From a virus (Duplodnaviria > Caudoviricetes), in IMG/VR virus record IMGVR_UViG_3300033405_000945, positions 1 through 24,717 of that record: 24,717 nt of DNA; one strand, written 5' to 3'. This document shows, piece by piece, positions 2,664-24,048 of this stretch (position 1 is its first letter; each line of letters opens with the position of its first letter). The position numbers and the translations under genes are program-made. Below the pieces are notes generated by a model. That model saw nothing but the letters and a program-made list of their open reading frames with translations. It was not told where the DNA came from and made no database searches.

Positions 2664-2804
2664 ATGACACTTGCAACAAGAACTTCTGAACCCACCCCTG
2701 GCCCCTCCCAAGAGGGGAACAAACAATCCGGTCTCCCCTCCTCTGGAGGGGCTGGGGGTGGGTCTGGCTTAACGATGAAGGGTGGGCTTTGGGACAACCT
2801 ATGA
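2664..2804 (+). CDS. REP-derived coupling mini-ORF (46 aa)
   Basis: SD GGAGG 2652-2656 and ATG 2664. Reads through the REP pair; its TGA overlaps the next ATG (ATGA 2801-2804). Confidence 0.45.
   Translation: MTLATRTSEPTPGPSQEGNKQSGLPSSGGAGGGSGLTMKGGLWDNL
2689..2763. repeat. Inverted pair of REP-like family A elements (ACCCACCCC-n-CCCCTCC-nn-GGAGGGG)
   Basis: AACCCACCCCTGGCCCCTCCCAAGAGGGGAA ... TCCCCTCCTCTGGAGGGGCTGGGGGTGGGT. Confidence 0.9.
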
Positions 2805-3163
2805 ACGATCATGGAATCAACTGGACCGGCGTGCTGGCGATCATCGCGCTGCTGGAATTCTTCCGCAGCCTGGTGATCTATGTCTTTATCAGTCCCCTGC
2901 GCGGCGCGGGCAAGAAAATCGACCATCTCGAATGCCAGATCAACGGACTGAATTTCGCCCACCTGCAAAAGAGCGTCGAGGACCACGAGTGCCGCGTGCG
3001 CGAACTCGAACGCGATGCGATGCCGGTCGATGATTTTCGCCGTTACACCGACACGTCCGAACGCGACCGCCGCCTGGTGAACAAGAAACTCGACATCCTG
3101 CTGCAGCGCACCGCGCAACTGCGCGACCCGGCCGATGAAAGGGAACTGAGTGATGAAAACTGA
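2801..3163 (+). CDS. Mu gp25-like (DUF2730-type) single-TM coiled-coil protein
   Basis: N-terminal TM (WTGVLAIIALLEFFRSLVIYVFI), then coiled coil HECRVRELE...VNKKLDILL. Lies just before the gp26- and gp27-like genes. Confidence 0.6.
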   Translation: MNDHGINWTGVLAIIALLEFFRSLVIYVFISPLRGAGKKIDHLECQINGLNFAHLQKSVEDHECRVRELERDAMPVDDFRRYTDTSERDRRLVNKKLDILLQRTAQLRDPADERELSDEN

Positions 3164-3164
3164 A

Positions 3165-3241
3165 ACCCCTCTCTTTATTTCTCTCCCGGCGGGAGAGATC
3201 AAAACCGGATTTCCCCTCCACCGGAGGGGCCGGGGGTGGGT
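3165..3241. repeat. Family A REP-like pair
   Basis: Hairpin TCTCTCCCGGCGGGAGAGA followed by TTCCCCTCCACCGGAGGGGCCGGGGGTGGGT. Confidence 0.85.
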
Positions 3242-3247
3242 GACCCG

Positions 3248-3523
3248 ATGAACCCTGAACAACTCCGCGACCTGCGGGTCGTGATCCTGCAATACCTCTA
3301 CCGCGCCAAACCCCTGGGCCGTCGCGCCACCGTGATCCATCAGATCGTCCGCCAGGAGGTCGATTGCGAACTGTCCGATGTCGCCGCCCAACTCGCGTTC
3401 CTCCAGGGCAACAACTTCATCTGCGCGGTCAAAGCCGACAGCCTGTCCCCCGGCCTCCCGCCGTTCTGGTTTATTACGACGGCCGGCATGGTCGAATGCG
3501 AGGAGAAACATCTTGTCCCGTAA
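3248..3523 (+). CDS. Mu gp26-like winged-helix protein
   Basis: LRVVILQYL...VAAQLAFLQGNNFI...WFITTAG pattern, ~91 aa, immediately upstream of the gp27-like gene. Confidence 0.7.
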   Translation: MNPEQLRDLRVVILQYLYRAKPLGRRATVIHQIVRQEVDCELSDVAAQLAFLQGNNFICAVKADSLSPGLPPFWFITTAGMVECEEKHLVP

Positions 3524-3532
3524 TTTCCAAAC

Positions 3533-3629
3533 TGTAGCCGCGCCGCTCCGCCGGCGCGATTCCCCACACTGTAGCCGCCCCGCTCTGTCGGGGCGCTTCG
3601 CGGCACGGCGACAGAGCGCCGTGGCTACA
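3533..3629. repeat. Cluster of three GTAG-type REP elements
   Basis: TGTAGCCGCGCCGCTCCGCCGGCGCG (3533), TGTAGCCGCCCCGCTCTGTCGGGGCG (3570), and inverted CACGGCGACAGAGCGCCGTGGCTACA (ends 3629). The last two recur at 5733-5793. Confidence 0.9.
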
Positions 3630-3921
3630 ACGACGGTTCCACAAATTCCGACGGCCGGCTCGCTCTCCCCTTGCGCAACCCGCATCCTCCCGCCCCGTTC
3701 ACCGGCCCGAACCGCCGGGCCGCTCACCCTGATGCGCGCCCTGCTCGCCCCGTTGCGCCTACTCGCTGTCCGCCCGCGCCTCCTTGGATCAGTGGCGGAC
3801 GTCGCGAGCTGCCGTCGGGTTCCTTCTTCGCTGATCCGAATCTCAGCCTTCGAGTCCTCCGCTGTCGCTCGCCTTTCCTCCGGACTTCGATTTTCCGGAC
3901 TCCATTCCCCCGAGGCCGCCC

Positions 3922-4554
3922 ATGCTGCGTAGACCCAAAGGCAAGATCTCCATGCTCCCGGAGAACGTGCGAGATCAGATCAATGACAAGATCCGCAACG
4001 GCTGGCAGTACCGCACCATTCGCGACTGGTTGTTTGCCCAACGCGCCGAGCAGGACATCCCGGATCTGCAACTGAAGGCGGGTGACCTCTATGCCCTGGT
4101 CTGGTCACGCGATGCAAAGACGAAGCGGTCGATGCAATGCACCTGCCTCAACGCCCTCAGCGATTGGTATCGAACCCATTACCGCAGCTGGCTCAAGGAC
4201 CAGCTCTCCTTTGACCGCGCCCTCCGCCTCGTCGAGGAAAACGAACAGCTCAGTAGCCTCGCCAGCGACAAGGCCCAACCAGACTCCAATCTCGGCGGCA
4301 CCCTCATCGTCCGCTCCTTATTGATGGACGCCATCCGCGCCCTCTGCGAAGACGAAGAGGCCGCTAATCCCGCCCAACTGGCGCGCCTCGCCAATGCCTG
4401 GGCCCGCATGAGCGACACCGGCCTGCGCGGCCAGCAATCCCTCGACGCCGGCCTCCAGTCCCTGCGCGACGAAATCAAATCCAACCCCAACGCCCTCGAG
4501 CACTTCAACAAACTCTACGCCACGCTGAAACACCCCAGCCAAAAGAAGTCATGA
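3922..4554 (+). CDS. Mu gp27-like (DUF3486) putative small terminase
   Basis: N-terminal KGKISMLPENVRDQINDKIRNGWQYRTIRDWL pattern. ATGA overlap with the large terminase. Confidence 0.75.
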   Translation: MLRRPKGKISMLPENVRDQINDKIRNGWQYRTIRDWLFAQRAEQDIPDLQLKAGDLYALVWSRDAKTKRSMQCTCLNALSDWYRTHYRSWLKDQLSFDRALRLVEENEQLSSLASDKAQPDSNLGGTLIVRSLLMDAIRALCEDEEAANPAQLARLANAWARMSDTGLRGQQSLDAGLQSLRDEIKSNPNALEHFNKLYATLKHPSQKKS

Positions 4555-7082
4555 CCCGCGTCGCTGAAGAACTCAAACAAGGCCTCGACGGCAGCCTCTC
4601 CTGCAAAGTCGCGACGCCATCGGTCCGCTCGTTCCGCGAGTTTTTGGAGAAGCATGCCCGCGTGAAGACGCCGGATGGAAGCTATGCGGCGTACACGTTT
4701 GCGGGACGGGAGGCGCTGGAATTTGTGGTGGGGATTATTGACCGGGTGTTGGCGAATGGCGACGGCCACGAACCCACCCCTGTATCCCCTCCGAGGAGGG
4801 GACCCAACCCGAACGTGTTCTCCATGCATTCATCCCCTCCGAGGAGGGGAACGGATCCGCACTCGAATTCCATGCATTCATCCCCTCCGAGGAGGGGAAC
4901 GGATCCGCACTCGAATTCCATGCATTTATCCCCTCCACCGGAGGGGATCAAAGGGGTGGGTCATCCGATCTCCGACGCACGCCTCACCGCGACGGGGAGT
5001 GCGCAATGGGGCAAGCCGAGTGCGGCACTAGCCGCACGAGACGGCGCGATGTCGTCTTCGCGCCAAACCATCCATGATTGCCCCATCAGCGATGCCCGGC
5101 TCACCGCCACCGGCTCGGCGCAGTGGGGCAAAACCATCCTCGAACTCAATCTGCTCGCGTATCTGACCGGCCTGCAATTTCGTTCGGTCGGTTTGTTCCT
5201 GCCCGATGAAGACCTCGTCGAAGGCGTGGTCGATTCCAAGTTTCGGCCCGACGTGCTCGACCAGCTTCCCTGGCTCAACTCGCTGATCACGCTCGGCAAA
5301 GCCGAGAACGCCTCGGGCAAGACGGTCAACCGCAAAGGCCTGTTCACCTGCACCGATGGCCGGAAACGGTCACACGGGATGATTCACGGGATGCAGAAGA
5401 TCCCGACGACGTTCAGCTTCGACGTGGTGATCGAGGACGAGAAGGACGACATCCCGCCGAGCATGTCGCGGTATCTGACGGCGCGCATGACCGCCAGCGA
5501 TCTGCGGTTCCGCTTGAGCATCGGCACACAACGCTACGCCGGCGCGGGGCAGAACAAGGAGTTCGAGGCCGGCACGATGCATACGGGAGTGTTTGAGTGC
5601 CCAAATCCCAAGTGCCTATACAAACAGAATCCGGAAGAGAACTGGCCGGGGATCTGCCGACTGGCCGTGGATGGCGCGCCGCGAACGGATGATCCGCAGC
5701 TTACCTTGGAAGGGAACTTCCGCTGCGCCGGCTGTAGCCGCCCCGCTCTGTCGGGGCGCATCCCCGACACGGCGACAGAGCGCCGTGGCTACAGCGAAAC
5801 GGGCGTCTTCGACTTCTCTCCCGATGCCCATTTCTACCTCGCCTGTGTCCGGTGCGGCGCGGAACTGAATCGGCACGTGCCGGAGTTCATCCCGCAACAT
5901 CCGGAGCGGGAGAAACTGCATCACTGGTCGGTCCGCATCTCGCAGCTGCTGGTCGCGGCGATCTCGTTGAAGCAAATCGTCTCCGACTGGTGCCACAACG
6001 CGGTGAAAGACCCCGACGCGATGAAGACGTTTTACGTCGACCGCCTCGGCCTGCCGCGGAGCGCGACGCAACAGATTGACCAGAAGATACTGGACCGCGC
6101 GAGAAGTGTGGAAACGTTCGATCTGTCGCTGACGCCGCGCCCCGGCACGGTGCGGTATGCCGGGCTGGACACGGGAGACAGATGCTGGCTCACCGTCCGC
6201 GAATGTGATGGTGTAGTAGCGGCCGTCTCGGCCGCCTCCGCGCCGAGCGGCACAGGCGTCTCGCCTGTAGCCTCCGGTCGTTCTAAACGCATCGTGTGGC
6301 TGGAGCAGCTCAGTGCCGAGCGCGTCCGGTCGCGCGTGCCGCAGATTTTCGAGACGATGGGCATCGCGACGTTGTTTGTGGATGCGGGCCCGCTGCGCGA
6401 TCTCGCGCGCGATTTGTGTTTTCTGCTGAATGGGCTTAACGGCGCGGACGCGCGGCAGCGCGTCTCTCCAAACGACGCGGAGAAAGCGGTCATCCATTTT
6501 CCCGGCGGTCTCGTTTGGGACGGGAGAAGCCAGCAATGGCGCGGATTGCGTTGCGCCGCGGTCGAGTTCTCGCTGAAAACCGGCAAAGGCATCCAGCACA
6601 AGCTCGGCATCACGCAGGACGGACTGTTTTACCCGATCATCGCCTGTAATCGGGACGAGACCATCGAGCGCGTCGTCAATGAATTACTGACGGCCAGCGA
6701 GGGTGTGATTGAGGTGGTTGAAACCGCAGGGCATAACCCACCCCTGTATCCCCTCCGAGGAGGGGAACGAAGGTTGCGGACGGAACCGGCGATTCGACTG
6801 CCCGCGCGCACGGCGGGTTCACCGAAGATTATCGAGACGTTCGACGCGCATGTGATTGCCGGGAGCCGCCGCGACCGCGACGCGGACGGCAACGCCGAGC
6901 ATTTCGTCGACGGTTGCGAAAATCATTTTCTGCTGAGCAACGCCTACAGCGCGCTGGCGGAATCGGTCGGCGAACACGTCGTTCCGCCGGTGTCGGGCGC
7001 GATGGACCCCGATACCGCGGTGACATCGAGCCACACCATGAACCGATTCGGGCGACACACTTTGGCCAGGAGACCCTGGTGA
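4551..7082 (+). CDS. terL: Terminase large subunit (lambda GpA-like) with six in-frame repeat insertions
   Basis: Walker A GSAQWGKT, Walker B VVIEDEKDD, Cys pairs CPNPKC and CVRC, nuclease YAGLDTG, LFVDAGP, ENHFLLS. Confidence 0.9.
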   Translation: MTRVAEELKQGLDGSLSCKVATPSVRSFREFLEKHARVKTPDGSYAAYTFAGREALEFVVGIIDRVLANGDGHEPTPVSPPRRGPNPNVFSMHSSPPRRGTDPHSNSMHSSPPRRGTDPHSNSMHLSPPPEGIKGVGHPISDARLTATGSAQWGKPSAALAARDGAMSSSRQTIHDCPISDARLTATGSAQWGKTILELNLLAYLTGLQFRSVGLFLPDEDLVEGVVDSKFRPDVLDQLPWLNSLITLGKAENASGKTVNRKGLFTCTDGRKRSHGMIHGMQKIPTTFSFDVVIEDEKDDIPPSMSRYLTARMTASDLRFRLSIGTQRYAGAGQNKEFEAGTMHTGVFECPNPKCLYKQNPEENWPGICRLAVDGAPRTDDPQLTLEGNFRCAGCSRPALSGRIPDTATERRGYSETGVFDFSPDAHFYLACVRCGAELNRHVPEFIPQHPEREKLHHWSVRISQLLVAAISLKQIVSDWCHNAVKDPDAMKTFYVDRLGLPRSATQQIDQKILDRARSVETFDLSLTPRPGTVRYAGLDTGDRCWLTVRECDGVVAAVSAASAPSGTGVSPVASGRSKRIVWLEQLSAERVRSRVPQIFETMGIATLFVDAGPLRDLARDLCFLLNGLNGADARQRVSPNDAEKAVIHFPGGLVWDGRSQQWRGLRCAAVEFSLKTGKGIQHKLGITQDGLFYPIIACNRDETIERVVNELLTASEGVIEVVETAGHNPPLYPLRGGERRLRTEPAIRLPARTAGSPKIIETFDAHVIAGSRRDRDADGNAEHFVDGCENHFLLSNAYSALAESVGEHVVPPVSGAMDPDTAVTSSHTMNRFGRHTLARRPW
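4771..4961. repeat. In-frame array of four family A hairpins with 48-bp period, inside terL
   Basis: ATCCCCTCC at 4784, 4832, 4880 and 4928, bounded by AACCCACCCC and GGGGTGGGT. Encodes repeats of SPPRRGTDPHSNSMHS. Confidence 0.95.
4965..5132 (+). repeat. Duplicated 17-codon Walker A segment separated by a structured AGCCGAG element
   Basis: PISDARLTATGSAQWGK encoded at 4965-5015 and 5082-5132. Two-hairpin element at about 5014-5066. Confidence 0.95.
5731..5795. repeat. In-frame GTAG-type REP doublet in terL
   Basis: GCTGTAGCC...GGCTACAGC inverted ends; near-identical to intergenic 3570-3629. Encodes CSRPALSGRIPDTATERRGYS. Confidence 0.95.
6213..6268. repeat. Two in-frame REP-like hairpins in terL
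   Basis: GTAGTAGCGGCCGTCTCGGCCGC and GGCACAGGCGTCTCGCCTGT share a GTCTC loop region. Confidence 0.7.
6446..6469. repeat. In-frame REP-like hairpin in terL
   Basis: GGACGCGCGGCAGCGCGTCTCTCC, same architecture as intergenic 7597-7622. Confidence 0.65.
6735..6767. repeat. In-frame family A element in terL
   Basis: 32 nt identical to 4771-4802 but read in a different frame (NPPLYPLRGG). Confidence 0.95.
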
Positions 7083-7117
7083 ACACAACCAACCCTACAG
7101 AAAACCGGAGGAATGAA

Positions 7118-7582
7118 ATGAAGAAGTTACTATCGACAACACTGATCGCAGCAATCGTAGCGTTCGCGGCCTACGTACCGAGCGCGCGGGCGCAGGCGAT
7201 CTTCGTGCCGGGCTACGACGTGCCTTCGACCATCGCCACGAACGCCTTCGTCGTTAATGGCACCAACGGCATGCTCGTCACGCCCCTGGTCATTACCAGC
7301 AGCACCAACGGCGCGACGGTGACGGTTGTCACCAACACCGCGAACTCGAACCGCGTTTTCCTGGACGTCATCCAACAGGGCACCAACGCCTGCGACGTGA
7401 TTTACGATCAGGCCGCGACGACCAACAGCATCGGCGATTACCTCGGCGGCGCGGTCGGCGCGACGTGGACCACCAAACGCCCCGCGCTCTACAAGGGACC
7501 CGTCACGCTCATCCTGCATTCCCACGCTCCGAACCAGGCCACGACCGTCTGGACCATCGAAGGCAGCACGGGCGGCCTCTAA
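7118..7582 (+). CDS. Signal-peptide-bearing small beta-sandwich protein (154 aa)
   Basis: SD GGAGG, ATG 7118. MKKLLSTTLIAAIVAFAAYVPSARA-Q signal peptide; Thr/Asn-rich mature part. Confidence 0.8.
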   Translation: MKKLLSTTLIAAIVAFAAYVPSARAQAIFVPGYDVPSTIATNAFVVNGTNGMLVTPLVITSSTNGATVTVVTNTANSNRVFLDVIQQGTNACDVIYDQAATTNSIGDYLGGAVGATWTTKRPALYKGPVTLILHSHAPNQATTVWTIEGSTGGL

Positions 7583-7596
7583 TGGCGAATTGAATC

Positions 7597-7622
7597 GGAC
7601 GGCTCGGCGAGCCGTCCCTACC
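7597..7622 (-). repeat. GTAG-type REP element
   Basis: Reverse strand reads GGTAGGGACGGCTCGCCGAGCCGTCC. Confidence 0.85.
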
Positions 7623-7635
7623 AACGACAATAAAA

Positions 7636-9408
7636 ATGGCCACATTGCTTCAACGCGGATGGAACCGGCTGCGCGGCGCGGCCAGCGACATCACGTCGTA
7701 TTTGAAGTCCCCGGCGGATTCGACGCGCGGCCTGATCTTCTTCGGCGAGAGTAATCTGGTGGATCCAGATGCGGCTCGCCGGGAGGCTCGCCCTCCAAAG
7801 CCCGGCACGTTGATCAAAGCGCAGGTGGCCGAGCGCTGGATCAACCAGGTCACGCGCGGGCTGACGCCCGAAGCGATTGACGACTATCTCATGTCGGCCA
7901 TCAGCGGCGACACACTCAACCAGTTTGCGATGTTTGAGGAGATGGAAGAGAAATGGCCGGAGCTCCGGCTCGCGCTCTACAAACACAAACTCAAGGCCGC
8001 GCGCCGCAACCCGCGCATCGTCCCGCCCGATCATCCGCAACATCCCGCGCTCGCCCGCGAGAAAGCCGAGTTCGCGAACCACGTGTTTGCCGGCATCCGC
8101 CACTGGCACCGCACCGCGTTCAACCTTCTGGATGCGGTCGGCAAAGGCATCAGCGCCGCCGAGATCGACTGGCAAATCACGGATATGCCGGCACCCACCC
8201 CCGGCCCCTCCCGTGGAGGGGAGCGCCGGTTGCGACAGGCCGTCGTCATTGCCGAAATGCCCTGGGTGAATTACCGGCACTGGAGTTATTGGTGGGACAA
8301 ACCCGAGTTGCAGGTGTTCCCCGATCTGCGCAACCGCGGCCTGCACTTCGAGATCCCCGACCGCAAGTTCGTCGTGTTCCAGCATCTGTCGAAAAGCGGC
8401 CACCCGGCGCGGGCGGCGATGCTGCGTCCGCTCGCGTGGTATTTCCTCATCTATCTGTTTGCGATGAAGGACTGGGGCACGCTCGCCGAGACGTTCGGGG
8501 TCGATATCGCCCACGCGTTTTGCAGCAAGGACGCCACGCAGGAGCAGCGCAACACGATCCTGCTCCATCTCTCGCGGCTGGCCGCGCGGGCGGGCGTGTT
8601 CGACGAAGGCACGGCGATCAATCTCCAGCGTGCCGCCAGCGCCAGTTCGTTCCCGCAGGAAACCATCGTCAAATATTGCTCCGAGAAAGCGCTCGAATGT
8701 CTCCTCGGCGCGACGCTCGCCACCCAGGCCGGCGAACACGGCGCCCGCTCGCTCGGCCTCGTCCAGCAGGATGAGACGGAGGAATTGGTCGATTGGACCT
8801 GCCTGCTGTTTGCCGGGACGATGACCGGCACCGCGTTGCGCTGGTTGATGGAGTTCAACTTCGCCGAGCCCGGCGACAATCCCGTGATGGAATTGCCCGG
8901 CGCCAACCGCCGCGATCTGGCCGCGCTGGCCAACGTCCTCAACCTGCTCGTCAACCTCGGCGTCCGCGTGCCGGAGGCCTGGGTCCACGCCCAATTCGAT
9001 ATTCCGCATCCGCAGCCGCTCGATCTGGTGGACGGCGCGACCCCCGGTGAGCCGAAACTCGAACGCATCCTCACCCCGAACCAGAACGGCCCGGCCGACC
9101 TCATGCGCACAGACACATTCGGCAATCCGCTTACCGCCGCCCAAGCCCAGCGCGCCCTCGACGCCATCCGTCTCCGCGCCATGGCCGAGGGCTACGACCT
9201 GCGCGCGTTTGATCAGCTTGCCACGCCGATTGAAACGCTCATCGCAGGTAAAAGATCCCCGGCCGATGCGCTCCACGAACTCAAAACAGCAGCCGACGCT
9301 CTTGCGCCCGCCCAACTCGACGGCCTCGCGCCGCAACTTCTTATCCTCGGCGACCTGCTCGCTCGCAACGAATTCACTTCGCCCAATTCCGGAGACCACC
9401 ATGACTGA
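7636..9408 (+). CDS. Portal protein, Mu gp29 / DUF935 family
   Basis: FEEMEEKW, LLDAVGKGISAAEIDW, MLRPLAWYFL...KDWGTLAETFG, LLGATLAT, ARSLGLVQ motifs, plus synteny. Confidence 0.9.
   Translation: MATLLQRGWNRLRGAASDITSYLKSPADSTRGLIFFGESNLVDPDAARREARPPKPGTLIKAQVAERWINQVTRGLTPEAIDDYLMSAISGDTLNQFAMFEEMEEKWPELRLALYKHKLKAARRNPRIVPPDHPQHPALAREKAEFANHVFAGIRHWHRTAFNLLDAVGKGISAAEIDWQITDMPAPTPGPSRGGERRLRQAVVIAEMPWVNYRHWSYWWDKPELQVFPDLRNRGLHFEIPDRKFVVFQHLSKSGHPARAAMLRPLAWYFLIYLFAMKDWGTLAETFGVDIAHAFCSKDATQEQRNTILLHLSRLAARAGVFDEGTAINLQRAASASSFPQETIVKYCSEKALECLLGATLATQAGEHGARSLGLVQQDETEELVDWTCLLFAGTMTGTALRWLMEFNFAEPGDNPVMELPGANRRDLAALANVLNLLVNLGVRVPEAWVHAQFDIPHPQPLDLVDGATPGEPKLERILTPNQNGPADLMRTDTFGNPLTAAQAQRALDAIRLRAMAEGYDLRAFDQLATPIETLIAGKRSPADALHELKTAADALAPAQLDGLAPQLLILGDLLARNEFTSPNSGDHHD
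8193..8222. repeat. In-frame family A element in the portal gene
   Basis: ACCCACCCCCGGCCCCTCCCGTGGAGGGGA, just after the EIDW motif. Confidence 0.9.
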
Positions 9409-10783: not shown

Positions 10784-10820
10784 CCCGATACCGAAACCAA
10801 CAAATAAGGAGAACCAAACC

Positions 10821-15649: not shown

Positions 15650-16669
15650 ATGCCCGGCAATAACATCGCCGAAATCGTTCTCCGCGTCACCACCGAGGGC
15701 ACGCAAAACGCCCAGATGATGGCGAGCCAACTGAATCAGGTCGATCAGGCCGCGCGTCAACTCACCACGTCCACGCTCTCCGCCACGACCGCGCAACGGG
15801 CCTGCACCACGGAAGTGGGGCGCACGCATTCGCAACTGGCAAAGCTCCTTCAGGATTGGGGCGACCTCGAACGGCAGGTGGACCATTTCTCGGCCACGAC
15901 GCTGCGAAATTTCTCCACGACCTCGGCCCGTGCGCTGACGGAATGGATCGAAGGGTCGGGCAAAGCCCGTGATGCCTTCCGCGGGTTCGTTACCCAGGTC
16001 ATCGAGGGCCTGATCCAGATGGTCATCCAACAGGGCATCGCCCACGCCATCGGCCTGGCGCAAACCCGCGAAGCCGGGGCAACACAGGCAGCCACGAACG
16101 CGCAAATTACGGCCAGCGCCGCGCCCGCTGCCGCCACCCAGGCCGCTGCCACGTTCGGCGCCAACGCCGCGGGCGTCCTCGCCGTCGTCGCCGTCATCGC
16201 CGCCGCGGTCGGCATTCTGGCGGCCACACGCCACGCCGCCGGCGGCGTGATCCGGGGACCGGGCAGCGAGACGAGCGACTCGATCCCCGCCTGGCTCTCG
16301 CACAACGAATACGTCCACACCGCCGCAGCCCACCGCTATTACGGCACCGACGCAATGGACGCAATCAACACCCGCAGTATCCCACGCGAGGCGATCCATG
16401 CGGCGATGAGCCACCAAACGTTTGCGGTGGGAGGCGCAATCACACTGCCCTCATTCGCTGCCGGCGGATTCGTCCGCAGTGGCAGCAACGGACCCGTCAA
16501 CGTCGATGTCGGTTCGCCCAACGTCCTTCTCGGCATCGGCGACGCCGAGATTGGGCGCATGACATCCACGAGTGCTTTCCAAAAGTCCTTTTTCGACAGC
16601 CTGGCCAAAAACGCCGTCCGCACCACCCGTATCGTCACCCGCAACGGAGGCCACCGCGCCGAGTCATGA
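15650..16669 (+). CDS. Short tape measure protein (339 aa)
   Basis: IAEIVLRVTTEG N-terminus, Ala-rich helical body, AAGGVIRGPGSETSDSIPAWLSHNEYV C-terminal TMP motif. Confidence 0.85.
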   Translation: MPGNNIAEIVLRVTTEGTQNAQMMASQLNQVDQAARQLTTSTLSATTAQRACTTEVGRTHSQLAKLLQDWGDLERQVDHFSATTLRNFSTTSARALTEWIEGSGKARDAFRGFVTQVIEGLIQMVIQQGIAHAIGLAQTREAGATQAATNAQITASAAPAAATQAAATFGANAAGVLAVVAVIAAAVGILAATRHAAGGVIRGPGSETSDSIPAWLSHNEYVHTAAAHRYYGTDAMDAINTRSIPREAIHAAMSHQTFAVGGAITLPSFAAGGFVRSGSNGPVNVDVGSPNVLLGIGDAEIGRMTSTSAFQKSFFDSLAKNAVRTTRIVTRNGGHRAES

Positions 16670-17952
16670 TTGCCGGACTTACAATTCTGCCGTTTCGGGC
16701 GAACTGGAAGGACGGAGTCCAGTTGCGGTCCTCGTTTGCGACGAACATTTTCCAGTCGACGGCCGGATCACAGACGCGATTCTCGCAGCGGGATTACGGC
16801 CGGCGACAGATCCGGTTTCGGTTGTTGCCCTACCATGATTTTCGGCGGCAATGGGATGCGTTCCGCGAAGTGAATCCGCCGGGGACGCTGCTCGGTGTTC
16901 CGCTGTGGAGCGAGCAAGGGATCGTGTTGACGGCAGCCGCGGCGAGCGGGGCGACGACGCTGACGGTGAACAATGCGGCGGACATCGACTGGCGCGGGTT
17001 GGGGGTTTTGATATCGGCGACGCCAACAACGGCAAGCGGGACGCTCGCCCTACAAGTTGAAGGGTTCAACATCCAGAGCATTTCGGGCAACACGATCACG
17101 CTGGCGGCTGGATTGACCAACGCGTTCAATGCCGGTGATGAAGTGTTGCCGCTGATGTTGGGGCATCAGCTCGCGGATTACGCCGACGACTTTATCACGC
17201 CCGAGATCAGCGACGTGGAACTGACGTTCGATGAGAACCTGAACGACCTCGGTAGCGTGAGCTTCGCAACGCCACCGACATATCCGACGTACCTCGGGCT
17301 GCCCGTGCTGCCGCTGATCGCCGAATGGAGCACGACGCCGAAAGGCAAGATCACACAGAACGCGCACTATCTCGTGCAAGGGCTCAACGCCGAATCGATC
17401 GGGATTGTCCAGGCATACGTGCGGCAGGGGATCGCGCAGCGCGTGGGCATGGCGTGCCGGGCGGACCGGGCATTGCTCTGGCAATTCTTTCACGATCGGG
17501 AGGGACGCTGGGATCGGTTCTGGTTGCCGGCGCTGAAGGATGAACTGAAACTGGCGGCGAACGTTTCTGCCAGCGACACGACGCTGGAACTGGAAAACTA
17601 CGCGCTGTTTGCCGAGCGGTACGGGCTCGGCGCGGACCTGCGGATGGCCATCTTCCTCACGGACGGCTTCAACTGGTGGACGCGCCAGGTCATCAATCTC
17701 TCCGGCGGCACGAACCGGGTGACGATCGACGCGGCGCTCGGCACGGCGCTCAATATGAATGCCTGCCAGATCGGGATGCTGACGTTCGTGCAGTTCGCCG
17801 CGGATGATTTGGTGGTGGACCTGCAGGCGCCCGTGGTCGGCACGGCCACGCTGGCCTTCACGGAACTCGAAAAGGAATACGCCGAAGTGATCGCGGCCGG
17901 CAGTGGCGACGCCAGCGGCACGCGCGTTGGACAGGAATTGGTGGCGGGATGA
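16666..17952 (+). CDS. Distal tail / tail-tip protein
   Basis: PFRANW N-terminus and LWQFFHDREGRWDRFWLP motif; ATGA-coupled to the TMP. Confidence 0.7.
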   Translation: MIAGLTILPFRANWKDGVQLRSSFATNIFQSTAGSQTRFSQRDYGRRQIRFRLLPYHDFRRQWDAFREVNPPGTLLGVPLWSEQGIVLTAAAASGATTLTVNNAADIDWRGLGVLISATPTTASGTLALQVEGFNIQSISGNTITLAAGLTNAFNAGDEVLPLMLGHQLADYADDFITPEISDVELTFDENLNDLGSVSFATPPTYPTYLGLPVLPLIAEWSTTPKGKITQNAHYLVQGLNAESIGIVQAYVRQGIAQRVGMACRADRALLWQFFHDREGRWDRFWLPALKDELKLAANVSASDTTLELENYALFAERYGLGADLRMAIFLTDGFNWWTRQVINLSGGTNRVTIDAALGTALNMNACQIGMLTFVQFAADDLVVDLQAPVVGTATLAFTELEKEYAEVIAAGSGDASGTRVGQELVAG

Positions 17953-18035
17953 AAATGATGGACGCCCGACCCACCCCTTCCGCCTTGCTCCTTCCCCTCC
18001 TTGGAGGGGACGAAAGGGGTGGGTTGCCCACATGA
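17949..18035 (+). CDS. REP-derived coupling mini-ORF (28 aa)
   Basis: MKMMDARPTPSALLLPLLGGDERGGLPT. ATGA overlaps at both ends; spans family A element 17969-18024. Confidence 0.45.
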   Translation: MKMMDARPTPSALLLPLLGGDERGGLPT

Positions 18036-19780
18036 GAACGGTTCCCCTGGCCTGGACGGCACTGGAGACGGCGCGGCAGCAGAAGGTGGCGCTGCTGTTC
18101 CATATCTGGATCTGCCGCGATGCGTACTCGGGCGGGTTGACGGCGGGCAAGGTGACGCCGCCGGTCGGCTGGGGTTCGTGGACGTACTCGACCGGCTTCC
18201 AAGGCAACGTGACTTTCACCGACGTGGCCAACTACGCCCAGGACTGGCAGTCGGCGAATTCCGGCAACCCGATCACGCGGACGTACGCGCCCGCGGCCAT
18301 CGAGTGCGACGCGAGCCAGGTCTTTCGCAAGGAGGACACCACGCTGGACCCGCACGACATCACGCTGCAGGTCGATCCGTCGCTGGAGCCGTTCGCCGAT
18401 TACGTCAACCGGAGCTGGCCGCTGCGATTCGGGATCACGATCTACAAGGTCCACCGCAATGGCAATGCGGTCGCCACGGTCGATAACGGCAGCGGCACGC
18501 AGGTGCCCGTCGTGGACGTGCTGTTCGTCGGCTACCTGAATGCCGATGACACGCTGGAACTGAACTCGGCGGGGTTGGAATTGACGATCGATCCGTCGAC
18601 GGGTACGGGCGGGGCCAAGGCGAAGCTCACGACGCAATGGGACCACGTGTTCAAGAAACTGGACCGGCTCGTGCCGCGCCCGGTGTTTTCCATCCAGTGC
18701 CCGAAGATGGTGTACTCGACCGGGTTCGGCGCGGCGGTGGATTGCAATGCCGATATGCCGAGCAACCAGGTCACGGGCACGGTGGTCCAGATGAACGGCA
18801 TGGTCATCTCGGCGATCGAATGGGGCGCGCTGCCGAACGCGTTTTTCGCCCAGGGCATGATCGTCTACACCGCCATTGATCCCGTGAGCGGGCTGGAGTT
18901 TACGTTCACGTTCGACGTGGTGGCCAGCGCCCAACGCGGGTCGAGTCCGACGTACGGTGACCTGCAGATCATGGGCGTGATCGGGACGCCGCCGCTGGTG
19001 ACGATCGGGACGATTGTCCAGGCATACAAGGGCTGCAACCGGAACCGCAACGACGGCACGACGAACAGTTGCATGATCGGGTTTATCCCGGCGGGGTCGC
19101 AAACGGCGTCGGAAGCGTGGAGTTCCGCGGCGGCGTATGTGCCCGGGAACATCGTAAACTACGGCGGCTCCGTTTATCTCTGCCTGGTCGCGAACACGAA
19201 CGTCGCGCCAACAACGCTGGCGCCGGACTGGGAACTCACGTTCACGCCCGGGACGTTGCGCGTGTCGCTGCAGTTGTTCCAAACGCCGAGCGGCGGCAGC
19301 AACGAACAGAACCCCACGGGCTGTTACGTCTACATCACCGCGACCGAACTGTGGATTGTCTACTATCGCGACAATCCGAACCAGATCGGCAACATCACCA
19401 TCGGGGTGGCCAATGGCGGGTCGGGCACGCCGTTCGATTCCACGAGCACGCCGGCGCTGGCGTGGACGGTGAACGGCGGCACCATCGTGTCCAATCAGTT
19501 CCCGCTGGCCAACGCGTCGGCGTCGGGTCCGCCGGCCCAGGCCGGCTACAAGATCACGCTCAGCAACAGCGGCGCGACGGCGGATATCCACCAGCAACCG
19601 ACCGCATGCAATGGCTACGTGGCGATCATCCATTGCAGCGGCGGCTCGCCTGCCAATTTCGATTTCACGGTGGGCTGGGTCGATAGCGGCGGCACACCGG
19701 TGACGATCGGCAACCTGGAGAATTTCGGGGGCGCGGACATCCCGATCGAGCACCCGAGTTTGGAGACGGCAAATCAATGA
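18032..19780 (+). CDS. Baseplate hub-like protein (DUF2163/BR0599 type) with an inserted carbohydrate-binding module
   Basis: Four Cys (QCPKMVY...DC; YKGCN...SC) and terminal NLENFGG..IP. ATG 18032 taken as the start because the upstream in-frame stretch is REP-derived. Confidence 0.7.
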   Translation: MRTVPLAWTALETARQQKVALLFHIWICRDAYSGGLTAGKVTPPVGWGSWTYSTGFQGNVTFTDVANYAQDWQSANSGNPITRTYAPAAIECDASQVFRKEDTTLDPHDITLQVDPSLEPFADYVNRSWPLRFGITIYKVHRNGNAVATVDNGSGTQVPVVDVLFVGYLNADDTLELNSAGLELTIDPSTGTGGAKAKLTTQWDHVFKKLDRLVPRPVFSIQCPKMVYSTGFGAAVDCNADMPSNQVTGTVVQMNGMVISAIEWGALPNAFFAQGMIVYTAIDPVSGLEFTFTFDVVASAQRGSSPTYGDLQIMGVIGTPPLVTIGTIVQAYKGCNRNRNDGTTNSCMIGFIPAGSQTASEAWSSAAAYVPGNIVNYGGSVYLCLVANTNVAPTTLAPDWELTFTPGTLRVSLQLFQTPSGGSNEQNPTGCYVYITATELWIVYYRDNPNQIGNITIGVANGGSGTPFDSTSTPALAWTVNGGTIVSNQFPLANASASGPPAQAGYKITLSNSGATADIHQQPTACNGYVAIIHCSGGSPANFDFTVGWVDSGGTPVTIGNLENFGGADIPIEHPSLETANQ

Positions 19781-20424
19781 GGCCAGAACTTCACATTGAT
19801 ACCCACCCCTCATTCCCCTCCAGGGAGGGGACGCAAGGGGTGGGTAATCGCCTTCCATACTTCCACACGTCCGAGCGGGTGGCGGCACTCAAGGACCAGC
19901 TCGCGAAATGGCAGACGACCCGGTGGCGGCATTCGGGCACGCACCCGAACGAGATGCGGTGCGGGATCTCGGGGGATTGCCTGTTCTGGGTGGTCGCGTT
20001 CAAGGCGATCGGGGCGCTGCCGTCGCACCTGGTGATTCCCGATTACCGCAAGATGGAAGCGGCGGGGGACAAGATGGCGTTGTTGCGGCTGCGGATCATG
20101 GAGACGGGCCGGGCGGAGTTGGTCATGGAAGAACCCGCCCCTGTTTCCCCTCCTGGGAGGGGACCGAAGGGGTGGGTGCCGATGGCCGGCGACGTCCTCC
20201 TGTTCCGCAACGGGATGTCGGGCGTGCACTGCGGCCTGGTGGTCCGGCCCGCGCCGATGCATTTCTTTCACCTGAGCCAGAACGGCGCACTCGAAGAACC
20301 GTTCAATCAGTCGCACTGGCTGGCGAGCCTGGCGTTCGTGTACCGGCTGATGGACGAGGAACCCACCCCTTCCGCTTCGCTCCTTCCCCTCCAGGGAGGG
20401 GATAGAGAGGTGGGTGTCGCATGA
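19777..20424 (+). CDS. NlpC/P60-family tail peptidase with three in-frame family A elements
   Basis: WRH...GDC and HCG...FFH catalytic pattern. Repeats at 19801-19845, 20133-20177 and 20361-20415. ATGA overlaps at both ends. Confidence 0.8.
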   Translation: MRPELHIDTHPSFPSREGTQGVGNRLPYFHTSERVAALKDQLAKWQTTRWRHSGTHPNEMRCGISGDCLFWVVAFKAIGALPSHLVIPDYRKMEAAGDKMALLRLRIMETGRAELVMEEPAPVSPPGRGPKGWVPMAGDVLLFRNGMSGVHCGLVVRPAPMHFFHLSQNGALEEPFNQSHWLASLAFVYRLMDEEPTPSASLLPLQGGDREVGVA

Positions 20425-23400
20425 GCCTTTTAGCCGCACCCTCCACACCGGCCAATGCATCGCGGCGGATGGCGAACTCGTCGCGGATCGCGTCGAACAT
20501 CCTCGGCACGCCGGTCCCGGTGCTATGGGGGACGCGGGACCTCTCGGGCACGCTGGTGGCGTGGACGAACCTGTCGTACAACTCAGGCGGATCATCAGGC
20601 AAAGGCGGTGGCGTGGTGTCGGCGGGCGACCGCTACTACCGGACATTCGCGCTGTGTTTCTGCCTCGGGCCGTGCGACACGATCAACTCGATCTGGTACG
20701 ACAACCAGATGATCTGGCAGGGGCCGGTGTCGATCGCATCGGCGCTGGCGACGGCCAACGCCATCCAGGGCGCGGGCTCGGTGATGCTCACGGACAATCC
20801 GCCGACGACGTCGACGCCGGGCATCAGCCCGATCCCGGTCAACAACAATCGCGGCACGATCTGTTTCTATTTCGGCACGGACACGCAAACGCAGGACCCG
20901 TTCCTCGCGCAATTCATTCCCAACGCCCCGTTCTTTCGCGGGATGGTCTATGCGGTGTTCCACGGTCCGCGAACCGTCTCCAGCGGCAAGTACTCGCAAC
21001 AAGGCTTCCGCATCGGCAGCGCCGATACGCTCGCCCAGATCGCGATCAATGTGACCCGGATTCCGCCGGAGCCGACAGGCTCGGTGTTCTCCGTCGCCAC
21101 CACGCCGGCCCCCGCGCAAATCGTCACCTGCGCGGCGCGGATCTCCGGCGTTTGGGACCGCGGCCCCGCTGCGACTCTTACCGTAACGGCCGGCGCTGAC
21201 GATGGCCACCTCTCTGTAACGGCGTCCTCGGCCAGTGGCGATACGGCGGTCTCGCAGGCGGCCAACGGCGTGGAATTTCAGGCGCTGCCTTACTTCTACG
21301 TCACGCTGACATGGCCATCGAGCTCGCAGCCGGTGCTCCCTTCCGGGGTGACGATCGGGTTCAACCTGGCGATCAACGGGACGACCATCACCAAGATTGT
21401 GTCGAGCCCGACACTCGCGCTCGATGTGAGCATTGCCGGATGGAGCGGAAGACAGAACGTGCTGTACCAGATCACGGTCACGCCGGGCATCGATGACACC
21501 GCGGTGAACGTCGAAACGGCCGTAATCGCCGGCGTCGACACGGTCGGGGGATCGTACCCATTGAACGGCGTGGCCTTCGCGGTCGGGACGCTCGGGTTGA
21601 TGGTCACGCTCTCGTGGCAGACCGGCACGATCCCGCTCGCCGCAGGGCAATCGGCCAGTTTCGAGATCGTTGTGAGCGCCAACGCCGCCGCCGGCAACCT
21701 CGGCGCCAATCCGGGCGCGATGGTCTATGAGTTGTTGACGTCCACCGTCGCCGGGTTCGCGCTGAACCCGGCCATCATCGATGAGACGCAGTTTGGCGCG
21801 TTCGCCGGGCAGGCCAACTATGCCGGGCTGAATTACATGACGACCGAGAAAGCCGATGCGCGCGGCTTGATCCAGGACATCTTGAAGAACGTCCAGGCGG
21901 CGTTGACGATATCGAACGGGCTCATCGCGCCGCGGATGATGGGCTATCTGCCGGGGACCTTGACGACGATCGCGCAGACCCTGGACGCCGACGACGTGAT
22001 CGGTTACAAGATCCGTCCGGGCGCGTGGTACGAACTCCCGCAACACCTGTCGGTCAAGTACCGCGATTCGGGCCGGCTGTTTCGCGACACGGTCTGTTCG
22101 CTGCCCGGCGCCGGCAGCGTGGGCAACGATGAGAAGGCCATCGAGATCGATCTGCCGATGGTGACGGACCTGCTCACGGCTCGCGTGATCGGGTTGCGGA
22201 TGATGGCGCTGGAGCAGTTGCCGAAGAAGCCAGATACGCTCATTTGCGGACGCGGGGCGTTCCCGATCCAGTTCGGCGACATCATCGCCCTCAACAATCC
22301 GCGGATCGGCACGTTGCCGGCCTCATTTAATTATCAGCCCGGCAGTCCGCTCGTGGTGCTGGCCGTGCGCGAACACGGTCCCGGTGACGAAACGATCGAG
22401 CTGGATGTCGCGCCCGACGTGTTCGGGTATCTGCCGGTGAATTCCACGGCCACCGGCGGCGGAGGCGGCGGTATCCCGGCCGGGCCGGCGGAGCCGTATT
22501 ACGCGATCTCGGTCCAGGGCGCATTCGAGTTCCCGTACGACTGGGACCCGTCCGTCAGCCGGTTGTTCTGCCTGTTCGCGGCCAGAACCGATCCCGATGC
22601 GCAAGGGTTCACGCTCTGGGCCTCGGATGAAAATCCGCCCGTGGATTACTCCGAACGCGATACCGACGCGCTGTTCTGCGCGGGTGGCACGATCCAGGGG
22701 TTCAATGCGCCGCGGTTCACGATGGACCGCACCGCGACGATTCAATTCACCGCGGCGAGCCAGGACATCGATGCCTGGCAGAGCGTGTCCGACACCGGCT
22801 GGTTCGGTTATCAATTTCTCGTGCTGCTGGGCGGCAGTGGGCTGGCGCTGCTCTACGCCGCAAAGAACCTCAATTACCTCGGTGACAACCAGTGGGAGAT
22901 CGAGGGACTGTGGGGACCGCTCAGCGACACGATCGGCGGGACGGTGGGAACCGACGTCTGGGTGTTCGCCCTGCAGCCGCCCTACGACGTGCCGGCGCAG
23001 CCCAGCGAGGTCATCGGCGTCACGATCAGTTTCAAGGGCATACCGTTTGGCAGCCGATTGAGCCCGACGCTGTCCGCGGCGACGGCGGCGCCGGTGACCG
23101 TCGCCGGCCGCTCGGCTTGTCCGCGCGCACCGGTCAATCCCAACGCGAACGGCCGCGGCGCGAACATGTTCCCCTCCTACGGAGGGGCAGGGGTGGGTAA
23201 TGACATCGCACTCGCGTGGGACCTGTGCAATCGCGGGTTCGGTTTTGGACAGGAGACGAACCCGTGCGAGTTCGATCCGGGCATCCAGAGTGAGGTTGCG
23301 CAATGCCAGGTGGACGTCGTGGTCGGGGGCACGGTGGTCAAGACGTACACCGTCAGCACGCGCGAGTTTGGCGGCACGGGCATCACATCAGGCACCATCA

Positions 23401-23732
23401 CGGCGCAGACGTTTCCCATATCGAGCACCGCGACCCTGCAGCCCGGCGACCGCATCAGTGTCGTGCGCGCCGCCGATCCCGCCGGCACGGAGTGGTTCGG
23501 ACGCGTCGCCACGATCAGCGGCAACCAGGTCACGCTCGTCAGCCCGTTGTGCGTCATCCCGAGCGCCGGCGATACCTTCAACCGCTACGAGTCCTGCGGG
23601 TTCGTTTACACCGCCGCGCAGAACCTGGCTGACAACGGCTCGCTCCCGTCCGCGATCACGTTCAACATCTACGGCTACCTGAACGGCCTGCGTTCCCTGC
23701 AGCCGGCAACCATTACGGTGACAAAAACATGA
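20421..23732 (+). CDS. Large tail-tip / host-specificity protein (J-like, GTA megatron-like)
   Basis: GTPVPVLWGT, PFFRGMVYAVF, ANPGAMVYELLT, ELPQHLSVKYRD motifs. In-frame family A element at 23169-23198. Confidence 0.8.
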   Translation: MSLLAAPSTPANASRRMANSSRIASNILGTPVPVLWGTRDLSGTLVAWTNLSYNSGGSSGKGGGVVSAGDRYYRTFALCFCLGPCDTINSIWYDNQMIWQGPVSIASALATANAIQGAGSVMLTDNPPTTSTPGISPIPVNNNRGTICFYFGTDTQTQDPFLAQFIPNAPFFRGMVYAVFHGPRTVSSGKYSQQGFRIGSADTLAQIAINVTRIPPEPTGSVFSVATTPAPAQIVTCAARISGVWDRGPAATLTVTAGADDGHLSVTASSASGDTAVSQAANGVEFQALPYFYVTLTWPSSSQPVLPSGVTIGFNLAINGTTITKIVSSPTLALDVSIAGWSGRQNVLYQITVTPGIDDTAVNVETAVIAGVDTVGGSYPLNGVAFAVGTLGLMVTLSWQTGTIPLAAGQSASFEIVVSANAAAGNLGANPGAMVYELLTSTVAGFALNPAIIDETQFGAFAGQANYAGLNYMTTEKADARGLIQDILKNVQAALTISNGLIAPRMMGYLPGTLTTIAQTLDADDVIGYKIRPGAWYELPQHLSVKYRDSGRLFRDTVCSLPGAGSVGNDEKAIEIDLPMVTDLLTARVIGLRMMALEQLPKKPDTLICGRGAFPIQFGDIIALNNPRIGTLPASFNYQPGSPLVVLAVREHGPGDETIELDVAPDVFGYLPVNSTATGGGGGGIPAGPAEPYYAISVQGAFEFPYDWDPSVSRLFCLFAARTDPDAQGFTLWASDENPPVDYSERDTDALFCAGGTIQGFNAPRFTMDRTATIQFTAASQDIDAWQSVSDTGWFGYQFLVLLGGSGLALLYAAKNLNYLGDNQWEIEGLWGPLSDTIGGTVGTDVWVFALQPPYDVPAQPSEVIGVTISFKGIPFGSRLSPTLSAATAAPVTVAGRSACPRAPVNPNANGRGANMFPSYGGAGVGNDIALAWDLCNRGFGFGQETNPCEFDPGIQSEVAQCQVDVVVGGTVVKTYTVSTREFGGTGITSGTITAQTFPISSTATLQPGDRISVVRAADPAGTEWFGRVATISGNQVTLVSPLCVIPSAGDTFNRYESCGFVYTAAQNLADNGSLPSAITFNIYGYLNGLRSLQPATITVTKT

Positions 23733-23748
23733 ACACGAATTTCCACGC

Positions 23749-23806
23749 TGTAGCCGCGGGCTTTAGCCCGCGTTCGACGGCGCGCACCTTAAAAGGTGCG
23801 GCTACA
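23749..23806. repeat. GTAG-type REP doublet
   Basis: TGTAGCCGCGGGCTTTAGCCCGCG ... CGCACCTTAAAAGGTGCGGCTACA. Confidence 0.9.
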
Positions 23807-23826
23807 AACCGCATGAGGAGCCCGGC

Positions 23827-24048
23827 ATGAGCACACTCATCAATGGCACCGAAGCCGAGCGCCGCAACGGCGCGAGACGCGGCCACGTCGTATCCCCGGC
23901 CGCAAACGCAGTCCGAGGTGATCAATGAGCACTCTTGTAAATGGCACCGAAGCCGAGCGCCGCAACGGCGCAAGACGCGGCCACGTCGTATCCCCGGCCG
24001 CAAACGCAGTCCGAGGTGATCAATGAGTACTCTTGTAAATGGCACCGA
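23827..24048 (+). repeat. 98-bp tandem duplication: gene start plus AGCCGAG structured element plus SD
   Basis: Units begin at 23827, 23925 and 24023. The third copy continues as the intact gene. Confidence 0.95.

What the first reader, a model, noticed from the sequence alone, without database searches (positions are those of the whole stretch)
2664..24026. Intergenic REP insertions sit in mini-ORFs that relay translational coupling
Seen by hand translation: stop-free mini-ORFs span the repeats and overlap neighbouring genes. ATGA at both ends: 13560-13655, 17949-18035, and the chain 23729-23830, 23827-23928, 23925-24026. ATGA at the 3' end: 2664-2804 (own GGAGG) and 3153-3251. Short overlaps at both ends: 3513-3932 (TTG with GAGGAG) and 12792-12995. 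The four independent ATGA-to-ATGA distances (92, 83, 98, 98) are all 2 mod 3, the phase needed for coupling (roughly 1 in 81 by chance, ignoring ascertainment). Exceptions: 7583-7635 and 12246-12315. Inference: insertions survive when ribosomes can run through the hairpin and reinitiate, so junk peptides act as coupling linkers and perhaps as raw material for new genes.
Basis: partly seen in the sequence, partly recalled or inferred. Interest (0 to 1): 0.8.

Follow-up and report, generated by a model that had tools for sequence, protein, structure and literature searches.

The report
Relay mini-ORFs across inserted hairpin repeats
In a phage-derived gene cluster of Verrucomicrobia, hairpin repeats that sit between normally overlapping genes are nearly always spanned by tiny reading frames running from one gene's stop to the next gene's start, which likely hand ribosomes across the insert, much as described for mycobacterial MIRU repeats.

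Summary
The nine mini-ORFs are real at the stated coordinates. The window is a Mu-like virion operon, intact in about 20 Verrucomicrobiia loci and probably domesticated. Most relay junctions are direct overlaps in repeat-free relatives. Independent repeat-bearing alleles outside this window are bridged in 20 of 22 cases (8-10 expected, p≤6e-7), and the ATGA coupling phase holds in 11 of 15 (p=0.002). Four never-overlapping junctions take the same repeats without relays. The 3513-3932 frame is open in 9 of 9 loci without third-position bias. Limits: 800 kb of host chromosome shows no phase bias, the pre-set test in nuo operons was not significant (27 of 78 vs 21.9, p=0.08), and no translation data exist. 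Best reading: selection keeps ribosome continuity (termination-reinitiation plus hairpin unfolding). The principle is known from MIRUs and integron attC short ORFs; the variant here is several unrelated repeat families with per-site evidence of selection. The scan reported the same pattern before on another genome of this clade (e1-9886804).

The parts
1725..24717 (+). Mu-like virion operon (small and large terminase, portal, protease I, major capsid, gp36, neck, tail terminator, tube, chaperone, tape measure, tail genes); likely a domesticated chromosomal element; runs off the window end
   Evidence: PHROGs/Pfam hits; orthologues in about 20 non-redundant loci; shared flanking genes
2664..2804 (+). 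46-aa mini-ORF with its own GGAGG across a CCCCTCC-type hairpin dimer; ends in ATGA on gene B (2801)
   Evidence: hairpin z=-3.6; 4 of 4 long repeat-bearing A/B alleles keep an ATG at +12/13 and end at +4,+4,-2,+4
3153..3251 (+). 32-aa mini-ORF from the ancestral 11-nt overlap start of gene C to an ATGA on gene C (3248)
   Evidence: direct -11 overlap in 7 of 12 loci
3513..3932 (+). 139-aa open frame (TTG start) across GTAG-type repeats and a conserved hairpin core; overlaps gene C stop and small-terminase start
   Evidence: open end to end in 9 of 9 long-gap loci, 79-181 aa; no PHROGs/Pfam hit
3645..3821 (+). conserved long-hairpin core inside the 3513-3932 frame; conserved as DNA/RNA, not as protein
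   Evidence: per-codon-position difference 0.26/0.23/0.24 vs 0.13-0.19/0.08-0.13/0.30-0.42 in genes C, K, M; 34 consensus pairs, 6 with double changes, covariation term -0.03; no Rfam match
7583..7635 (+). GTAG-type hairpin in a never-overlapping junction (F/portal); no relay
   Evidence: gap 24-27 nt in 11 of 14 loci
12246..12315 (+). CCCTCTCCC-type hairpin after the major capsid gene; never-overlapping junction; no relay
   Evidence: z=-4.1; gap 55-137 nt in 19 of 19 loci
12792..12995 (+). mini-ORF across two TGTC(CGTC)-type repeats at 12810 and 12864; probable start ATG 12804; ends 17 nt inside the neck gene
   Evidence: gap of 7 nt or less in 9 of 19 loci
13560..13655 (+). 31-aa ATGA-to-ATGA mini-ORF across a TGTC-type and a GTAG-type repeat
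   Evidence: direct ATGA overlap in 11 of 19 loci
17949..18035 (+). 28-aa ATGA-to-ATGA mini-ORF across a CCCCTCC-type hairpin
   Evidence: direct overlap in 10 of 15 loci
23729..23830 (+). 33-aa ATGA-to-ATGA mini-ORF across a GTAG-type dimer (first link of the chain)
   Evidence: the 7 other inserted alleles are all phase 2, direct overlap in 1 of 9 loci
23827..24026 (+). two 98-nt tandem copies (5' end of gene V plus a hairpin), each an ATGA-to-ATGA mini-ORF
   Evidence: (D4, D15); absent from the 99%-identical sister locus; not checked with reads
4772..4961 (+). four CCCCTCC-type repeats in frame inside the large terminase gene (further ones at 5734, 6216, 6750)
19801..20416 (+). three CCCCTCC-type repeats in frame in gene T (N-terminus, middle, C-terminus); both ATGA overlaps kept: the fusion solution to the same constraint
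24495..24523 (+). TGTC-type repeat in frame in the signal-peptide-like N-terminus of the last gene
   Evidence: (D13)

Best explanation
Hairpin repeats that landed at stop/start overlaps of this Mu-like operon are spanned by short open frames, which are likely translated from the old start codon and likely kept by selection because they would carry ribosomes through the hairpin to the next gene's start. Shown: the frames; the direct overlap in repeat-free relatives; the retained upstream start; the excess of bridged alleles and of coupling phase; lack of peptide conservation where testable. Inferred: an insertion at an overlap must leave the upstream stop on its left and a start on its right, so the old ATG survives and keeps receiving terminating ribosomes. 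If its frame stops early or runs out of phase, the next start sits about 15 nt behind a hairpin of about -30 kcal/mol, beyond reinitiation distance, and virion subunit supply falls, so the allele is purged. Alleles survive as a relay (stop on or near the next start), as an in-frame fusion, or more rarely with a self-sufficient start. The peptides are by-products. Long residence in the chromosome lets host repeat families accumulate here.
For: Repeat-free state is a direct overlap: L/M 11 of 19, R/S 10 of 15, B/C 7 of 12, K/L 9 of 19 loci. 41 of 43 inserted alleles bridged; 25 of 27 after pruning to independent events (11.6 expected, p=4e-9) and 20 of 22 without window alleles (9.5 expected, p=6e-7). 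Holds with real repeats swapped in (8.2 expected), with tighter windows (16 of 22 vs 4.0; 11 of 22 vs 2.6) and with a stop-free core where only phase is random (11 vs 4.8, p=0.001). Phase 2:0:1 = 11:2:2 outside the window, p=0.002. Length differences between related alleles are multiples of 3 in 6 of 10 coupled vs 6 of 37 uncoupled pairs, p=0.01. Downstream starts are more paired in relay alleles (unpaired 0.43, n=25, vs 0.64, n=40, p=1e-5). 3513-3932 is open in 9 of 9 loci with no codon-position bias. nuo junctions that overlap in at least half the genomes: 12 of 28 bridged vs 6.5, phases 12:2:2 (post hoc). Reinitiation is nearly lost beyond about 20 nt (PMC10666635, passages).
Against: No transcript, ribosome or protein data. 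Pre-set nuo test not significant: 27 of 78 vs 21.9 (p=0.08), tight 9 vs 5.8 (p=0.11). Host 800 kb: phase 2:1:0 = 12:23:24; 3 of 11 repeat-bearing host gaps with a nearby start are bridged. New element alleles: 2 of 3 bridged. Predicted Shine-Dalgarno strength does not differ (p=0.56), and several window starts have a good one, so they may not need a relay. The -8..+20 window was set after seeing data; independence was judged by eye. U/V has a direct overlap in only 1 of 9 loci. Adding E/F and M/N to the control raises it from 3 of 18 to 23 of 42.
Confidence: 0.68

Rival explanations
1. MIRU-like element design or insertion mechanics: the repeats insert at NTGA with a short duplication and bring their own open frame and length, so the relay is built in or accidental and not selected site by site.
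For: ATGA at both ends looks like a 4-nt target duplication; longer junction duplications are visible at B/C; host copies flank GIY-YIG, DUF559 and IS200-like transposase genes, so the inserts could be remnants of cassettes. Earlier scan notes reached this reading for other organisms (unchecked).
Against: Inserts differ in family and length (22-290 nt) and share no terminal motif. Extended duplication is rare: 3 of 42 alleles. The same families sit in uncoupled junctions without relays. Swapping in real repeats predicts 8.2, not 20, of 22. Later indels keep frame.
Confidence: 0.13
2. Ribosome coverage, not reinitiation: the frames are selected because untranslated hairpin RNA triggers Rho polarity, RNA cleavage or stalling at the upstream stop, while downstream genes initiate on their own.
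For: Good predicted Shine-Dalgarno sites at several downstream starts. Hairpins start a median 15.5 nt after the upstream stop, near the 15-nt range in which REPs stall ribosomes (Liang 2015 as cited in PMC12306157, passages). Some frames end several nt before or inside the next gene.
Against: Coverage does not need the exact ATGA phase, yet phase 2 exceeds phase 1 by 11 to 2. Uncoupled junctions carry equally strong untranslated hairpins (median -33.6 vs -30.1 kcal/mol).
Confidence: 0.13
3. The mini-ORFs, especially 3513-3932, are real small genes whose products have a function and into which repeats inserted in frame.
For: 3513-3932 is open in 9 of 9 loci and its core is read mostly in one frame with recurring residues. 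One real small gene was inserted at S/T in L047.
Against: No third-position bias in the core; two lineages read its 5' part in another frame; peptides at one junction are unrelated between lineages; the frames are absent where the genes overlap directly; no family hit for the 8 mini-ORFs scanned.
Confidence: 0.04
4. Chance: GC-rich, stop-poor repeats and ascertainment by the reader.
For: 63% GC; per-allele null rates are high (0.1-1.0); the five window alleles alone give p=0.18 under the loosest phase-only null.
Confidence: 0.02

Closest known systems
MIRUs, mycobacterial interspersed repetitive units (Supply et al. 1997; original not held, seen through PMC12548453 and PMC3184786 passages)
   Same: Repeats in operon junctions whose small ORF overlaps the neighbours with -4 spacing, proposed to insert with little effect on expression; 4-nt direct repeats at filled sites.
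   Different: MIRUs are a homologous 40-100 bp repeat class carrying the ORF. Here several unrelated hairpin families with variable flanks give the same outcome, in a phage-derived operon of Verrucomicrobiia, and orthologues give statistical evidence of selection per site.
Short ORFs in integron attC sites and attI1 ORF-11 (review PMC8876359, passages)
   Same: A short ORF inside a palindromic site lets ribosomes pass the stem-loop and reinitiate downstream; peptide sequence matters little for ORF-11.
   Different: No integron, integrase or cassette here; the hairpins are dispersed repeats at ancestral gene overlaps.
GTAG- and CGTC-type REPs (Di Nocera et al. 2013, PMC3733652, passages)
   Same: Tagged 20-40 bp palindromes, singly or as dimers, intergenic and in frame inside genes (many in Opitutus terrae, also Verrucomicrobia); link to IS200-like transposases.
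   Different: That paper set aside ORFs under 120 aa as plausibly spurious; the passages read do not describe relay ORFs. The commonest window repeat (CCCCTCC hairpin) has neither tag.
Mu-like transposable prophages and gene-transfer-agent-like domesticated loci
   Same: Mu-type portal, protease I, gp27, gp36 and gene order.
   Different: No transposase or replication gene among 63 flanking proteins scanned from three genomes; flanking genes shared between species.

Membership tests
MIRU | small ORF spanning the unit and overlapping both adjacent genes in the same direction | tested here: met
   41 of 43 inserted alleles
MIRU | 4-nt direct repeat at filled versus empty sites (transposition into the overlap) | tested here: inconclusive
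   empty sites are NTGA overlaps and filled ones mostly have NTGA at both ends, but intact genes require this anyway
MIRU | one homologous repeat class of 40-100 bp that itself carries the ORF | tested here: not met
   several unrelated families, 22-290 nt, no shared termini
MIRU | mycobacterial host and sequence likeness to MIRU units | tested here: not met
   closest loci are in Verrucomicrobiia assemblies; sequence comparison with MIRUs not run
MIRU | transcribed within a polycistronic mRNA | not testable with these tools
   no expression data obtained
GTAG/CGTC REP | short palindrome with terminal GTAG or CGTC/TGTC tag | tested here: met
   GTAG-tagged at 3534, 3571, 5734, 6216, 23750; TGTC-tagged at 12810, 12864, 13576, 24495; the 15 CCCCTCC hairpins lack the tag; not assigned to numbered families
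GTAG/CGTC REP | dispersed copies in the host chromosome | tested here: met
   63 sites in about 772 kb of G002:C10 outside the element vs 19 in 28 kb inside
GTAG/CGTC REP | association of GTAG repeats with an IS200-like (RAYT) transposase gene | tested here: inconclusive
   one Y1_Tnp gene flanked by GTAG repeats; RAYT subfamily not determined
integron attC short ORF | attC site in a cassette array with an integrase | tested here: not met
   neighbours are virion genes with direct overlaps in relatives; no integrase among window or flank proteins scanned
Mu-like transposable prophage | Mu-type head and neck genes | tested here: met
   Portal_Mu, Mu-like_Pro, Phage_Mu_Gp36, Gp27 (the Gp27 and Mu-like_Pro hits are below their cut-offs)
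Mu-like transposable prophage | transposase/early module adjacent, variable insertion site | tested here: not met
   none in 63 flank proteins of three genomes; same downstream flank families in 7 genomes; whole genomes not searched for MuA/MuB

The most novel reading that the evidence does not exclude
Translational coupling acts as a general filter on junk DNA: any hairpin repeat, of any family, persists at a coupled junction only inside a disposable relay frame; such frames then take up further repeats and structured elements (up to 181 codons at the C/D junction) under selection for openness alone, forming a translated, sequence-free reservoir. The clade is a natural experiment with dozens of independent replicates.
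Probability: 0.35. Interest if true: 0.72.

Novelty: new variant of a known kind. Interest (0 to 1): 0.5.

Why it matters
It gives replicated evolutionary evidence that a stop/start overlap is worth preserving even at the cost of translating a junk peptide, which bears on the open question of how much coupling matters in native operons and whether it works by reinitiation or by unfolding. It supplies ready natural allele series (empty, relay, fused, broken) for reporter tests, warns that such 25-140 aa ORFs are likely linkers and not small proteins, and indicates that this Mu-derived locus is still expressed under selection. The principle itself is already described for MIRUs and attC ORFs.

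Tried and rejected
Genome-wide test on the window's own genome: impossible, the held record is the window only. My first idea, that long junction duplications explain both ends, failed: 3 of 42 alleles reach 15 of 30 identical flank letters, means 4.7/5.3 vs 4.3/3.9. Host-wide phase bias: none (simple self-written gene caller, starts imprecise, but phase does not depend on the start). Pre-set replication in 41 nuo regions: not significant (rows with the start more than 30 nt from the homologous position were dropped; the print was cut, totals come). Weaker Shine-Dalgarno sites behind relays: no difference. Hidden upstream starts in 12 unbridged nuo alleles: none. 3513-3932 as a protein gene or known RNA: rejected. 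No read or expression evidence was obtained. Literature: searches (2 unrelated papers; 0; 2 unrelated listed; 1 unrelated; 0) found no description of this locus or of REP relay ORFs; led to the MIRU passage. Supply 1997 is not held. Supplements were not read; those of PMC3733652 list REP-bearing ORFs and might bear on novelty.
Full report
What the window is. The + strand from 1725 to the end is a Mu-like virion operon: portal, gp36, protease I, terminases, major capsid, neck, tube, tape measure and tail genes. Gene letters A-W follow gene order. The held record is the window alone. Relatives with 87-100% capsid identity were found in viral, metagenome and genome collections; the genome hits are titled Verrucomicrobiia/Verrucomicrobiae. 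After removing duplicates 20 loci were used, the window included; one fetched locus is identical to the window and was dropped, as were four low-quality 1.5-2.4 kb fragments and the 56-57% group. Genes are intact in most loci; a few assemblies show frameshifts. The tail gene R was found in 14 of 45 genomes of the family. Seven genomes share downstream flanking families and Pfam found no transposase or replication gene in 63 flank proteins from three genomes. A domesticated element is therefore likely, not proven.

The observation. All nine mini-ORFs and both exceptions are as stated. The 1-in-81 figure does not stand: the phase follows from the definition of the ORF, two links are a tandem duplication, and the cases were picked by eye. 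The repeats belong to several families: CCCCTCC hairpins (15 sites), GTAG-tagged and TGTC-tagged palindromes and others. Many lie in frame inside genes. The same families occur in a host contig at 0.08 per kb against 0.67 per kb in the element, where some flank a GIY-YIG, a DUF559 and an IS200-like transposase gene. Nine distant phage loci had 0 or 1 hit each.

Empty and filled sites. In repeat-free relatives the junctions are direct: L/M ATGA in 11 of 19 loci, R/S in 10 of 15, B/C an 11-nt overlap in 7 of 12, K/L 7 nt or less in 9 of 19; U/V only 1 of 9. Filled alleles keep a start codon at the old position. By a fixed rule (start within -11..+6 of the upstream stop; frame ends within -8..+20 of the next start, or fuses in frame) 41 of 43 filled alleles at eight such junctions are bridged. 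The misses are B/C in L049, an assembly with frameshifts elsewhere, and an inserted small gene at S/T. The -8..+20 window was chosen after I had seen K/L. Pruned by eye to independent events with the tree and similarity table: 25 of 27 bridged (11.6 expected by shuffling, p=3.6e-9); without the five window alleles 20 of 22 (9.5, p=5.9e-7); exact ATGA/TAATG ends 11 of 22 (3.1). Phase, which needs no model of stop frequency, is 11:2:2 (2:0:1) outside the window (p=0.0018 against one third; p=0.011 against phase 1). Swapping in real repeats from uncoupled junctions, narrowing the window, or assuming a stop-free core leaves p between 4e-3 and 2e-10. Related alleles differ by multiples of three in 6 of 10 coupled pairs against 6 of 37 uncoupled pairs (p=0.01); the four exceptions are all K/L pairs. 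Two tandem duplications, the window's 98-nt unit and a 113-nt unit at R/S in L047, both have period 2 mod 3.

Controls. At F/G, H/I, I/J, J/K, N/O and A/B, 3 of 18 alleles with a start near the stop are bridged, 7.8 expected (not de-duplicated). I left E/F and M/N out of that tally; they keep a GTGA/ATGA start and 10 of 12 alleles at each are bridged or fused, mostly with high null rates; with them the control is 23 of 42. At A/B the four long alleles keep a start with its own site at +12/13 and end on the next start.

The 3513-3932 frame. It is open from the C stop to a D start in 9 of 9 long-gap loci, 79-181 aa, ending 8-11 nt inside D; the start (mostly TTG) and, in four loci, the D start were chosen after the fact. 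Its shared core folds as a long hairpin, has no Rfam match, varies equally at all codon positions unlike real genes, and is partly read in another frame in two lineages. Openness is conserved, the peptide is not.

Replication, set before looking (note). New element alleles: U/V in G040 (+4) and Q/R in G024 (+7) bridged, one downstream junction in G004 not; G040 is the same lineage as L036. Downstream genes mostly carry the repeats in frame in their N-termini. In 41 nuo regions the pre-set test gave 27 of 78 bridged against 21.9 (p=0.08) and 9 tight against 5.8 (p=0.11): not significant. Subsets chosen afterwards were: upstream gene ending ATGA/GTGA, 22 of 35 against 15.1 (p=0.006); junctions overlapping in at least half the genomes, 12 of 28 against 6.5 (p=0.009), phases 12:2:2. 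Clear unbridged insertions exist in nuo. Across 800 kb of one host contig there is no phase bias (12:23:24) and 3 of 11 repeat gaps with a nearby start are bridged; a fourth frame ends 14 nt before a GIY-YIG start. The rule is strong in this operon, weaker in nuo, and not genome-wide.

Mechanism. An insertion at an overlap that spares both genes leaves the stop on the left and a start on the right; the old ATG remains. Extended duplication is rare and the inserts share no ends, so a fixed element design is unlikely. Hairpins lie a median 15.5 nt from the upstream stop and 15 nt from the next start. Starts behind relays are predicted more paired than starts behind hairpins at uncoupled junctions (0.43 vs 0.64, p=1e-5), with no difference in predicted Shine-Dalgarno strength (anti-SD motif recalled, not read from this host). 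Reinitiation is nearly abolished at about 20 nt in E. coli and Haloferax (PMC10666635, abstract and passages). I infer that relays restore delivery of ribosomes and melt the hairpin. Polarity shielding remains a rival. Nothing here shows translation.

What is known. MIRUs insert at start codons so that their ORF is coupled with -4 spacing, with little effect on expression (PMC12548453, passages); they are 40-100 bp, have 4-nt direct repeats and ORFs overlapping adjacent genes (PMC3184786, passages). The 1997 original was not available. Short ORFs within attC stem-loops act by termination-reinitiation (PMC8876359, passages). Intragenic GTAG repeats are common in Opitutus terrae (PMC3733652, passages). 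Repeats fused to ORFs as a source of new protein sequence is an old proposal. So this works like a MIRU but is not one. I took the MIRU lead from earlier scan notes, one of which reports the same pattern on another genome of this clade; two others judged similar patterns in other organisms to be by-products. Searches found no paper on this locus or on REP relay ORFs; subscription papers and supplements were not covered.

Verdict. Observation confirmed, interpretation partly supported, new variant of a known kind, interest 0.5.

Noticed in passing
window 12246-12315 and orthologues: The gap after the major capsid gene is 55-137 nt in 19 of 19 loci and is filled by at least three different repeat types; a hairpin may be selected here, for example to step expression down after the capsid gene.
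   Followed up: partly
window 15293-15303: A run of eight A in the tail chaperone gene with a downstream overlapping frame to 15620 looks like a G/GT programmed frameshift site (recalled pattern); the downstream frame looks similar in relatives.
   Followed up: no
window 1725-24717; G001-G010, G040, G044: The operon keeps shared chromosomal flanks and no adjacent transposase was found: candidate domesticated, gene-transfer-agent-like locus.
   Followed up: partly
window 24463-24717 and L133-L141: The last genes of the operon begin with signal-peptide-like N-termini, each holding a different repeat in frame; unusual for tail-end genes.
   Followed up: partly
window 3645-3821: Conserved 180-230 nt long hairpin upstream of the small terminase, in nine loci, no Rfam match; could be a packaging-related or regulatory element or an old MITE.
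   Followed up: partly
portal/protease junction in L056, L049, L030, L052, L036 and others: An 8-nt overlap in the window is replaced by 300-1700 nt inserts in many relatives; content not examined.
   Followed up: no
L086:6562-8229 (G002:C10): nuoL-nuoM junction holds an Mrr-like and a GIY-YIG gene between TGTC-type repeats; many relatives have other cargo at this junction.
   Followed up: partly
window 4966-5112 and 2154-2269: Short in-frame duplications of coding sequence next to repeats inside the terminase and gene A (D14 and D5).
   Followed up: no
genes A-D across loci: Identity pattern differs from the core genes (gene D is 44% to the otherwise 99% sister locus), suggesting recombination at the left end.
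   Followed up: no
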